Source: Eimeria praecox (Eukaryota). From it: a stretch of 64,000 bases of DNA. The notes beneath the pieces are model-generated. The model was not told where the DNA came from. It did no database searches and was given only the letters and a program-made list of their open reading frames with translations. Of the stretch, positions 15,993 to 19,154 are shown in pieces. The DNA lies in assembly GCA_963920595.1 (NCBI GenBank), contig OY986949.1, positions 2,604,001-2,668,000 of the forward strand, given 5' to 3'. How positions within the stretch are numbered: the first letter of the stretch is position 1; every line of letters starts with the position of its first letter. Position numbers and translations under genes: made by a program.

Positions 15993-18900
15993 AATGCTAT
16001 ACAAATATTCATATCATCTCAGTAAAACGGACAACACACAACACTCATCACACCATCCTCATGACGTGCCTTTTGTAGACCTTAAGAATGCAATGCAGAT
16101 GATTCGTATCATCTGAATAAATTTATGCTTGCTGGGATACAATCCATTTCCCCAAAGCCGCATATATCCCTCGATTCTCAATGTCTCATTCAAACCATGG
16201 AAATTCAAATATTTAAATCTAGCGACCCCATCTGCACATACATGTCATCATGACGTGCCTTTTGTAGACCTTAAGAATGCTCTATACAAATATTCATATC
16301 ATCTCAGTAAAACGGACAACACACAACACTCATCACACCATCCTCATGACGTGCCTTTTGTAGACCTTAAGAATGCAATGCAGATGATTCGTATCATCTG
16401 AATAAATTTATGCTTGCTGGGATACAATCCATTTCCCCAAAGCCGCATATATCCCTCGATTCTCAATGTCTCATTCAAACCATGGAAATTCAAATATTTA
16501 AATCTAGCGACCCCATCTGCACATACATGTCATCATGACGTGCCTTTTGTAGACCTTAAGAATGCTCTATACAAATATTCATATCATCTCAGTAAAACGG
16601 ACAACACACAACACTCATCACACCATCCTCATGACGTGCCTTTTGTAGACCTTAAGAATGCAATGCAGATGATTCGTATCATCTGAATAAATTTATGCTT
16701 GCTGGGATACAATCCATTTCCCCAAAGCCGCATATATCCCTCGATTCTCAATGTCTCATTCAAACCATGGAAATTCAAATATTTAAATCTAGCGACCCCA
16801 TCTGCACATACATGTCATCATGACGTGCCTTTTGTAGACCTTAAGAATGCTCTATACAAATATTCATATCATCTCAGTAAAACGGACAACACACAACACT
16901 CATCACACCATCCTCATGACGTGCCTTTTGAAGACCTTAAGAATGCAATGCAGATGATTCGTATCATCTGAATAAATTTATGCTTGCTGGGATACAATCC
17001 ATTTCCCCAAAGCCGCATATATCCCTCGATTCTCAATGTCTCATTCAAACCATGGAAATTCGAATATTTAAATCTAAAGACCCCATCTGCACATACATGT
17101 CATCATGACGTGCCTTTTGTAGACCTTAAGAATGCTCTATACAAATATTCATATCATCTCAGTAAAACGGACAACACACAACACTCATCACACCATCCTC
17201 ATGACGTGCCTTTTGTAGACCTTAAGAATGCAATGCAGATGATTCGTATCATCTGAATAAATTTATGCTTGCTGGGATACAATCCATTTCCCCAAAGCCG
17301 CATATATCCCTCGATTCTCAATGTCTCATTCAAACCATGGAAATTCAAATATTTAAATCTAGCGACCCCATCTGCACATACATGTCATCATGACGTGCCT
17401 TTTGTAGACCTTAAGAATGCTCTATACAAATATTCATATCATCTCAGTAAAACGGACAACACACAACACTCATCACACCATCCTCATGACGTGCCTTTTG
17501 TAGACCTTAAGAATGCAATGCAGATGATTCGTATCATCTGAATAAATTTATGCTTGCTGGGATACAATCCATTTCCCCAAAGCCGCATATATCCCTCGAT
17601 TCTCAATGTCTCATTCAAACCATGGAAATTCAAATATTTAAATCTAGCGACCCCATCTGCACATACATGTCATCATGACGTGCCTTTTGTAGACCTTAAG
17701 AATGCTCTATACAAATATTCATATCATCTCAGTAAAACGGACAACACACAACACTCATCACACCATCCTCATGACGTGCCTTTTGAAGACCTTAAGAATG
17801 CAATGCAGATGATTCGTATCATCTGAATAAATTTATGCTTGCTGGGATACAATCCATTTCCCCAAAGCCGCATATATCCCTCGATTCTCAATGTCTCATT
17901 CAAACCATGGAAATTCGAATATTTAAATCTAAAGACCCCATCTGCACATACATGTCATCATGACGTGCCTTTTGTAGACCTTAAGAATGCTCTATACAAA
18001 TATTCATATCATCTCAGTAAAACGGACAACACACAACACTCATCACACCATCCTCATGACGTGCCTTTTGAAGACCTTAAGAATGCAATGCAGATGATTC
18101 GTATCATCTGAATAAATTTACGCTTGCTGGGATACAATCCATTTCCCCAAAGCCGCATATATCCCTCGATTCTCAATGTCTCATTCAAACCATGGAAATT
18201 CAAATATTTAAATCTAGCGACCCCATCTGCACATACATGTCATCATGACGTGCCTTTTGTAGACCTCAAAGAACGACATAACAAGGCCTTAGCAAGGATC
18301 ACAACAGCAATCAAGCGGAGCGCGGTGAATCGGGACAAGACTCTACAAATAGACAGCAGTCCAGCGGATATGGAAACCCTACTGAGGCCAGATATCTTAC
18401 TCAGGGACGACAAGCACAAGCGAATTGTGATAGCCGATGTGGCTATTGCGTTTGAAGACTATCAGAAGAATTCGTTTGGCTCTGCTCGTCTACAAAAAGA
18501 AGAAAAGTATCAAAGCCTCAAGACGTATTATGAAAAACGTGGGTATAAAGTGTCAGTGCAAGCATTAATATATGGGTCCCTTGGGTGCATAGCAAAGGAA
18601 AACAAAAGAGTGCTTACACACGAGTTGGGACTCAATGAACGCACAGCATGGTTTGTACAACGTGAAATTAGCACTGACTGTATTCGTCTAAGCCATCGTA
18701 TTTGGGGTTTTCACATGGCAGATAATGGCACGAGGCGAGCAAGAGGAGGAGGTCGTTCTCGTGCTAACATATCTTAAGTTGCTTGACACACAAATGAGCT
18801 AATAGAACACCAAGCCTAATACGCTCGGTAGCAACACTGAGGGTTTATTCAAACGCGTGAAGACGGTTGGCTCGACATCCGGGCGTGCCGTAGGAGTTGG

Positions 18901-19154
18901 AGCTCCCTCGCATCAACCTTTTCAACCTTTTTTGCTCGAGGCGGCAACGCCCAACTCCAAAACCCAGCTATTAAATTTTAATGCTCTATACAAATATTCA
19001 TATCATCTCAGTAAAACGGACAACACACAACACCCATCACACCATCCTCATGACGTGCCTTTTGTAGACCTTGAGAATGCTCTATACAAATATTCATATC
19101 ATCTCAGTAAAACGGGCAACACACAATGCCCATCACACCATCCTCATGGCGTGC
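15993..19154 (+). repeat. 285-bp rDNA-spacer satellite array 1 (interrupted by a retroelement, ends at an assembly gap)
   Basis: Exact 285-bp periodicity of identical ORFs at 16129, 16414, ... 18124. Confidence 0.95.
18267..18979 (+). mobile_element. 5'-truncated RLE non-LTR retrotransposon (family B) inserted in the 285-bp satellite
   Basis: Encodes RHNKAL...RPDILL...IADVAIAFE...KEEKY (PD-(D/E)xK RLE), stop at 18777, then a ~200-nt 3'UTR homologous to that of the 28S element. Satellite sequence lies on both sides (AGACCT | AATGCTCTATAC). Confidence 0.92.

What the first reader, a model, noticed from the sequence alone, without database searches (positions are those of the whole stretch)
18267..18979. 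Second, diverged retrotransposon family (B) inserted in the satellite
Seen: a 713-bp 5'-truncated insert whose 169-aa RLE tail aligns without gaps to the family A C-terminus with 47 differences (~72% identity, manual count). It has heavy synonymous divergence and no stop codons. Inference: two coexisting lineages under purifying selection share one rDNA locus, one in 28S (antisense) and one in the spacer (sense), and a full-length B master copy should exist elsewhere.
Basis: partly seen in the sequence, partly recalled or inferred. Interest (0 to 1): 0.78.

Follow-up and report, generated by a model that had tools for sequence, protein, structure and literature searches.

The report
Retrotransposon target mimics in rDNA spacer
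In the ribosomal DNA of an Eimeria-type parasite, a broken-off piece of a second retrotransposon lineage sits in a spacer repeat that closely resembles the 28S site its relative jumps into, so the spacer likely offers these elements well over a hundred look-alike landing sites.

Summary
Observation confirmed: 713-bp 5'-truncated insert, 169 aa, 47 of 169 differences from element A without gaps, dN/dS about 0.1. Its predicted fold matches R2 endonucleases. B is a separate lineage, not a decayed A: an E. maxima piece is 91% identical over 43 aa and runs 94 aa further upstream; an A+B clade is rejected at p=0.02. The family is sister to oomycete Utopia-type (NeSL clade) elements, not R2.

The satellite motif it interrupts matches the antisense 28S site of A at 23 of 30 bases without gaps. 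That site is the best match among 5311 rRNA 30-mers, and the 3' junctions fall within one base of each other. The three spacer arrays hold 176 such motifs. A and B therefore likely share one recognition code.

Spacer specialisation of B (one copy) and a full-length B master are unproven: no genome or reads were available. Whether the mimic array is a decoy, a nicking substrate or a by-product is open.

The parts
18267..18979 (+). Element B: 5'-truncated non-LTR retrotransposon copy with complete 3' end
18268..18777 (+). B open frame, 169 aa restriction-like endonuclease tail; R/H, PD, D and K-x-x-K-Y positions that are invariant or nearly so across 44 homologues are intact
18778..18979 (+). 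B 3' UTR (202 bp) with blocks conserved with A's 3' UTR; no poly(A) tail; folding not significant (z -1.5)
18245..18266 (+). First 22 bases of the interrupted satellite motif (5' flank of B); motif positions 23-26 lost; motif resumes at 18980
15993..19154 (+). Spacer array 1 (285-bp unit = 96 + 189 bp subunits), 17 motif copies including the one B interrupts
26617..44918 (+). Spacer array 2 with degenerate edges, 131 motif copies plus a degenerate one at 44889
59984..64000 (+). Spacer array 3 (runs off the window), 28 motif copies
20577..25361 (-). Element A, full length (4785 bp), antisense in 28S; 2 target bases lost at its 5' junction
20774..25159 (-). A ORF, 1461 aa: one N-terminal CCHC-like zinc finger, RT, zinc knuckle, RLE
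58548..58719 (-). 5'-truncated A-type copy (3' UTR only) in the second 28S gene, same 3' junction as A, 3-4 bp target duplication
58720..58749 (-). 28S target 30-mer (element sense) that the satellite motif matches at 23 of 30 positions
19155..19354 (.). 200-N assembly gap between B's array and the A-bearing 28S gene

Best explanation
B is a 5'-truncated copy of a second lineage of an Eimeria restriction-like-endonuclease retrotransposon, and it sits in a spacer-satellite motif that matches the antisense 28S site used by element A at 23 of 30 bases, so A and B likely share one target-recognition code and the satellite likely serves as an array of secondary targets. Shown: the two lineages, the junctions, the motif match, the shared register. 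Inferred steps, by analogy with R2Bm (PMC10499050 passages): the protein binds an upstream block (motif positions 1-15), its endonuclease nicks the strand opposite motif positions 26-28, the freed 3' end primes reverse transcription from the element's 3' UTR, synthesis aborts after about 0.7 kb, and a variable second-strand cut with 1-base microhomology gives the 4-bp loss. The same variability is seen at A (2 bp lost) and truncated A (3-4 bp duplicated). Also inferred: the motif descends from, or is held close to, the 28S antisense site, and a longer B template existed when this copy was made.
For: Intact 3' end, truncated 5' end, small target change. Motif match 23/30 ungapped. The insertion site is the top match among 5311 rRNA 30-mers; the best non-overlapping one scores 21. 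0 of 2000 shuffled units exceeded 20/30, against 22 observed for a target window shifted by one base. A's two 3' junctions lie between motif positions 27 and 28, B's between 26 and 27, or 27 and 28 if its last base is A; a random insertion would hit this register and orientation about 1 time in 100 (2 motifs x 3 positions of 570; my arithmetic). The inferred empty 28S site occurs in 6 of 7 metagenome loci. In the degenerate motif at 44889, 5 of 6 differences from the satellite fall on the 6 of 25 positions where satellite and 28S differ (P 6.5e-4, post hoc). Precedent: YURE elements insert into a U2-derived satellite, and weakly specific Utopia copies sit in target-like sequences (PMC4640811).
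Against: One B copy only. Both visible 28S sites hold A-type copies and none of 176 spacer motifs does, so A at least discriminates strongly, and the satellite is a poor insertion sink in this window. Pooled over all distinct motif substitutions the conservation test is not significant (5 of 11 on mismatch positions, P 0.10). Homology beyond about 30 bp is not above background (local score 51 against a control maximum of 54), so descent of the whole satellite from 28S is not shown. B's N-terminal DNA-binding region is absent and could not be compared. No cleavage or binding was measured.
Confidence: 0.6

Rival explanations
1. Niche partition (first reader, refined): B's ancestor used the 28S site, drifted onto the satellite version of the motif and now prefers it, while A keeps the 28S.
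For: A in 2 of 2 28S sites, B in the spacer. A and B endonuclease tails differ at 47 of 169 residues. The B lineage spans species, which leaves time to specialise.
Against: n = 1; p = 0.33. A specialist with more than 100 sites per spacer might be expected in more than 1 of 176 motifs. Several Utopia families coexist at one identical U2 site in Phytophthora, so coexistence needs no partition.
Confidence: 0.2
2. B RNA was inserted in trans by A's protein, so the site reflects A's specificity and B may have no working protein left.
For: A and B share 3' UTR blocks. A has an intact ORF. No full-length B among the hits.
Against: A itself is not seen in any spacer motif. The 3' UTRs are well diverged outside the blocks. 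R2 proteins need their own 3' UTR (PMC10499050 passage). The databases hold few rDNA-embedded elements, so absence is weak.
Confidence: 0.1
3. Assembly chimera or mixed-species sample: B comes from another Eimeria.
For: B lies 175 bp from an N gap. Satellite alleles switch across B: 7 of 7 96-bp subunits to its left carry a private base, the one to its right carries the allele of arrays 2 and 3. Its nearest relative is from E. maxima.
Against: Both flanks are this window's own satellite, the right flank matching the end of array 2 at 163 of 164 bases; both junctions fall at the family's target register, which a misjoin would not choose.
Confidence: 0.05
4. The motif is a binding site for a host rDNA factor (terminator, enhancer or fork barrier) and resembles the 28S site by chance; B landed there at random.
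For: The motif heads every subunit type and has an inverted copy just downstream of 28S, as functional spacer elements can.
Against: Best of 5311 30-mers at exactly the insertion site, plus matching register. A host role is still possible on top of mimicry.
Confidence: 0.04
5. B is a decayed copy of A.
For: Same window, same family.
Against: dN/dS about 0.1, no stops or gaps, null test exceeded; B is closer to elements of other Eimeria than to A.
Confidence: 0.01

Closest known systems
Oomycete Utopia elements (NeSL clade; PMC4640811)
   Same: Single ORF with N-terminal zinc finger, RT, zinc knuckle and RLE; precise 3' and variable 5' junctions; several lineages co-maintained at one target. 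The Eimeria clade (with two unnamed Logan proteins) is sister to a clade of oomycete proteins, several with the upstream RNase H that marks oomycete Utopia (SH-aLRT 99).
   Different: Target is antisense 28S, not U2 snRNA; no RNase H. Eimeria is not in that paper's Table 1 or its 10 supplement files. The tree held no Repbase-labelled references.
YURE elements and the U2_sat satellite of Ciona (PMC4640811)
   Same: A Utopia-related element inserting into a satellite that resembles the family's RNA-gene target.
   Different: Here the satellite fills the rDNA spacer beside the true target, in the opposite orientation, at more than 100 copies per spacer; only about 30 bp are demonstrably similar.
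R2 (R2Bm, R2Tg)
   Same: RLE fold (top 7 Foldseek hits are R2 structures, TM 0.61-0.70); 28S target region; a two-block target as in RUM/RASIN (analogy).
   Different: Opposite orientation, 3' junction 8 bp upstream of the R2 position given in PMC10499050, no Myb domain found, non-animal host. PMC5035012 states R2 was never found outside animals.
R5/LIN9/LIN24/LIN26 of planarians (NeSL clade)
   Same: NeSL-clade elements that target 28S rRNA genes; R5 is antisense (recalled, from no call).
   Different: Animal lineage; their exact sites and relationship were not compared here.
Eimeria 'LINE R2' calls of Rodriguez and Makalowski 2022 (PMC9141347)
   Same: 17 non-LTR elements in Eimeria genomes classed as R2 by MGEScan, probably this family (inference).
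   Different: The passages read give no target site, lineage structure or rDNA link; Table S6 was not seen.

Membership tests
RLE-type non-LTR retrotransposon | Non-LTR reverse transcriptase in a single ORF | tested here: met
   For A: RVT_1 E 6e-32; best PDB sequence matches are R2 proteins. B lacks this part (truncated).
RLE-type non-LTR retrotransposon | C-terminal restriction-like endonuclease with PD..D..K residues | tested here: met
   B model pLDDT 92, R2 structures rank 1-7; residues conserved. Sequence-only searches missed it.
RLE-type non-LTR retrotransposon | Fixed 3' end, variable 5' truncation, small target-site change | tested here: met
   3 of 3 copies in the window.
RLE-type non-LTR retrotransposon | Target-primed reverse transcription activity | not testable with these tools
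   Needs a biochemical assay.
R2 clade | Insertion at the canonical 28S site in the sense orientation | tested here: not met
   A is antisense, 8 bp upstream; B is in the spacer.
R2 clade | N-terminal Myb domain | tested here: not met
   No Myb hit in A at E 0.1; one CCHC-like finger in 7 of 7 close family proteins scanned. B's N-terminus is absent.
R2 clade | RT groups with R2 | tested here: inconclusive
   RT tree groups the family with oomycete proteins, but held no verified R2 reference.
Utopia (NeSL clade) | RT groups with Utopia | tested here: met
   Sister to RNase-H-bearing oomycete proteins, SH-aLRT 99 in a quick LG+G4 tree of 51 of 122 stored proteins; their Utopia label is inferred from domain order and host.
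Utopia (NeSL clade) | Insertion in U2 snRNA genes or U2-like sequence | tested here: not met
   Flanks are 28S and spacer satellite; no U2 match by Rfam at 17700-19150. An 8-base block is shared with U2 but at a different distance from the cut.
Independent active lineage B | Purifying selection and relatives outside A | tested here: met
Independent active lineage B | Full-length intact master copy in this genome | not testable with these tools
   No genome held, no reads obtained; protein searches found none.

The most novel reading that the evidence does not exclude
The rDNA spacer satellite of this Eimeria is a selected array of more than 100 target mimics per spacer for a Utopia-derived retrotransposon family that has independently moved onto the R2 region of 28S in antisense. 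The mimics bind and are nicked by the element's endonuclease, acting as decoys for the 28S gene or as break sites that drive spacer and rDNA copy-number turnover. The clustering of satellite indels and an array edge at the inferred nick would be the scars.
Probability: 0.3. Interest if true: 0.82.

Novelty: new variant of a known kind. Interest (0 to 1): 0.62.

Why it matters
Apicomplexans are described as nearly free of LINEs, and 28S-specific elements of this kind are described from animals. An intact, multi-lineage, site-specific RLE family in Eimeria rDNA would explain the unexplained split 28S genes reported in E. acervulina (PMC13107808; inference) and gives a natural case of retargeting from the Utopia/NeSL stock. 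The satellite and 28S sites form a ready-made pair of substrates that differ at 7 of 30 bases, which makes target recognition directly testable and is of use to people developing R2-like insertion tools. If the mimic array is functional it would be a host-element arrangement that my searches did not find described. B on its own, a truncated copy of a second lineage, is ordinary.

Tried and rejected
No whole genome and no read data, so other B copies, empty-site frequency and expression are open. Locus searches with the family alignment found no relative in metagenome (0 of 299 candidate stretches), viral (0 of 18) or prokaryote contigs (0 of 37). The 50%-cluster search never ran. tblastn of 13 family proteins found no further copy in the window outside A and B. 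Decayed-A reading rejected. Descent of the whole satellite from 28S: not supported beyond about 30 bp. Descent from U2: no Rfam hit. No ribozyme family at A's 5' end. 3' UTR structure: z -1.5 (B) and +0.45 (A); 5 of 36 consensus pairs show double change on only three sequences, inconclusive. An apparent grouping of B with the E. mitis piece (95/83) vanished when more rows were added. One search's codon statistics were misaligned and dropped; one search's script stopped with an error after its useful output. Four look-ups of earlier scan notes returned nothing. Passages of PMC11828913 and PMC12659853 held nothing on this.

Full report
Setting. The window holds CAG- and TTTAGGG-rich chromosomal DNA (1-16 kb) followed by an rDNA cluster: a 285-bp satellite array (15993-19154), a 200-N gap, a 28S gene (19355-26463), a second array, an 18S-5.8S-28S unit (53410-59828) and a third array. 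Named relatives of the element come from E. necatrix, E. mitis, E. brunetti and E. maxima, so the host is taken to be an Eimeria (inference). ITS1-5.8S-ITS2 spans 976 bp, unlike the 765 bp listed for E. maxima or 912 bp for E. acervulina in PMC13107808. No genome or reads were available.

B spans 18267-18979 and replaces 4 bases of a 96-bp subunit. Its 169 codons align without gaps to A's C-terminus with 47 differences; dN/dS is 0.108 over 152 codons (bootstrap upper bound 0.185), with dS near saturation. Random decay to the same nucleotide distance never exceeded 58.6% protein identity in 10,000 draws, against 73.7% observed. Pfam and PDB sequence searches did not recognise the tail, but a model built on 44 homologues (pLDDT 92) has R2 structures as its top 7 fold matches. 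The 202-bp 3' UTR shares blocks with A's up to the terminus.

B is its own lineage. Of 187 hits to A's RT-RLE region (120 listed), six are 64-98% identical to A; none is B, the best scoring 77% against B's tail. Searching with B's tail gave 3 longer and 5 similar-length proteins. E. maxima EMWEY_00035880 is 91% identical to B over 43 aa (67% to A) and extends 94 aa upstream of B's truncation point, though it is itself broken. It groups with B at 98/87, and an A+B clade is rejected (AU p 0.021; 16 rows, three under half filled). The split therefore likely predates host speciation, or B moved between species. An intact B was not found.

Family. A is 4785 bp with a 1461-aa ORF: one CCHC-like finger, RT, zinc knuckle, RLE; no Myb or RNase H hit. 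In an RT tree of 51 chosen proteins the Eimeria clade plus two unnamed proteins is sister to oomycete proteins, several with an upstream RNase H (SH-aLRT 99), the mark of oomycete Utopia in PMC4640811. No labelled reference elements were in the tree. It works like R2 but fails R2's site, orientation and Myb tests, and fails Utopia's U2 test. It is best filed as a Utopia/NeSL-related family retargeted to antisense 28S.

The 28S target. A and a 172-bp truncated A-type copy in the second 28S share one 3' junction in a 28S helix whose stem carries compensatory changes against the Rfam consensus. The empty site inferred from the truncated copy's 3-4 bp duplication occurs intact in 6 of 7 metagenome loci. 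It lies 8 bp upstream of the R2 position given in PMC10499050, on the other strand. Both 28S genes in view are interrupted.

Read in the element's direction, the 30 bases around A's site match the motif that heads every satellite subunit at 23 positions without gaps, in two blocks: an upstream block (positions 1-15) and a 10-base core across the cut. Among 5311 30-mers of the window's rRNA genes this site is the best match to the satellite; the best unrelated one scores 21. None of 2000 shuffled units exceeded 20 (target shifted by one base, observed 22). A's 3' junction lies between motif positions 27 and 28; B's lies between 26 and 27, or 27 and 28 given an ambiguous A. The arrays hold 17, 131 and 28 motifs; a shared degenerate pattern has 159 exact matches, 158 in spacers and one in 28S. 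B thus sits in a mimic of A's site, in register.

How far this goes. For constraint: in the degenerate motif at 44889, 5 of 6 differences fall where satellite and 28S already differ (P 6.5e-4, post hoc). Against: pooled over 11 distinct substitutions P is 0.10, and similarity beyond 30 bp is at background. Indels inside the motif occur only at position 26, next to the inferred nick: a lone G lost at 32615, 41162 and 43159 (the last two one event copied), G to AAA at 27106/60473, two bases added at 44889. Array 1's left edge also breaks there. Adjacent A runs confound this, so it is suggestive only. Occupancy argues against a strong insertion sink: A holds 2 of 2 28S sites and 0 of 176 motifs, B 1 of 176; the lineage-by-site table is uninformative (p 0.33).

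Mechanism. Most likely (0.6) B was made by target-primed reverse transcription at a secondary site that its protein reads as A's protein reads 28S: upstream block bound, nick at positions 26-28, early abort, variable second-strand cut. Only the junction anatomy and motif match are shown; binding, nicking and a B master are inferred. Rivals: B specialised on the satellite version (0.2), trans-mobilisation by A (0.1), misassembly (0.05; satellite alleles switch across B and a gap is near), chance (0.04), decayed A (0.01).

Literature. PMC4640811 (parts 1-3 of 5 and supplement passages) gives precedents for several lineages at one site and for insertion into a target-derived satellite (U2_sat). 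PMC9141347 (part 1, passages, section 3.2) reports 17 MGEScan 'LINE R2' calls in Eimeria without targets; Table S6 was not seen. PMC13107808 (parts 1-4 of 6) notes 28S genes split by unidentified intervening sequence in E. acervulina. PMC5035012, PMC10499050 and PMC13580325 were seen as passages; PMC11700107 as abstract (R2-made breaks drive rDNA expansion in Drosophila). Nine searches showed no description of an Eimeria 28S-specific element or of target mimics in an rDNA spacer; Repbase, subscription journals and the Fell 2025 inventory were not searchable. The antisense orientation of R5 is recalled, from no call.

Verdict. Real; B alone is an ordinary truncated copy of a second lineage. The interest lies in an antisense-28S Utopia-related family in an apicomplexan and a spacer built of look-alikes of its target. 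New variant of a known kind; interest 0.62.

Noticed in passing
window 58548-58719 and 20577-25361: Both 28S genes in view are interrupted by A-type copies; the truncated one differs from A at 7 of 172 bases and leaves a complete target core on its 5' side, so tandem insertion would be possible.
   Followed up: partly
window 32615, 41162, 43159, 27106, 60473, 44889, 19050, 44778: Satellite motif variants cluster at positions 24-26, next to the inferred nick; possible repair scars.
   Followed up: partly
window 15967-16005: Array 1 starts abruptly against single-copy DNA inside a degenerate motif at the inferred cut, without the upstream 28S and degenerate subunits seen before arrays 2 and 3.
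   Followed up: partly
window 16061-18244 versus 18980-19154: Array 1 left of B has private alleles (7 of 7 96-bp and 6 of 8 189-bp subunits); the subunit right of B has the common allele and matches the end of array 2.
   Followed up: partly
window 26703-26861 and 60070-60228: An inverted motif copy forms a palindromic arrangement just downstream of each 28S gene.
   Followed up: no
window 58529-58547 and 58719-58724: The 28S helix at the insertion site has compensatory base changes against the Rfam consensus; the same variant occurs in distantly related loci L001-L005 and L007.
   Followed up: partly
window 17967-17974: Motif positions 8-15 equal an 8-base block upstream of the Utopia site in U2 snRNA as printed in the supplement of PMC4640811, but 12 rather than 19 bases from the cut; possible trace of the ancestral recognition block, or chance.
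   Followed up: partly
window 44919-53409: About 8.5 kb of non-satellite sequence between array 2 and 18S, with CAG-rich stretches; no family copy by tblastn and no Pfam hit in the one frame tested.
   Followed up: partly
window 41160-44808: The end of array 2 switches to a 381-bp unit and contains an exact duplication of at least 1239 bp.
   Followed up: no
window 10249-11448: Open frame with a weak MRS2-like magnesium transporter match (E 1.9e-6), probably an exon of a host gene.
   Followed up: no
P0140-P0143, P0145, P0146: Broken family copies in four Eimeria species lie on contigs of 8-99 kb, which hints at insertions outside rDNA; flanks could not be fetched.
   Followed up: no
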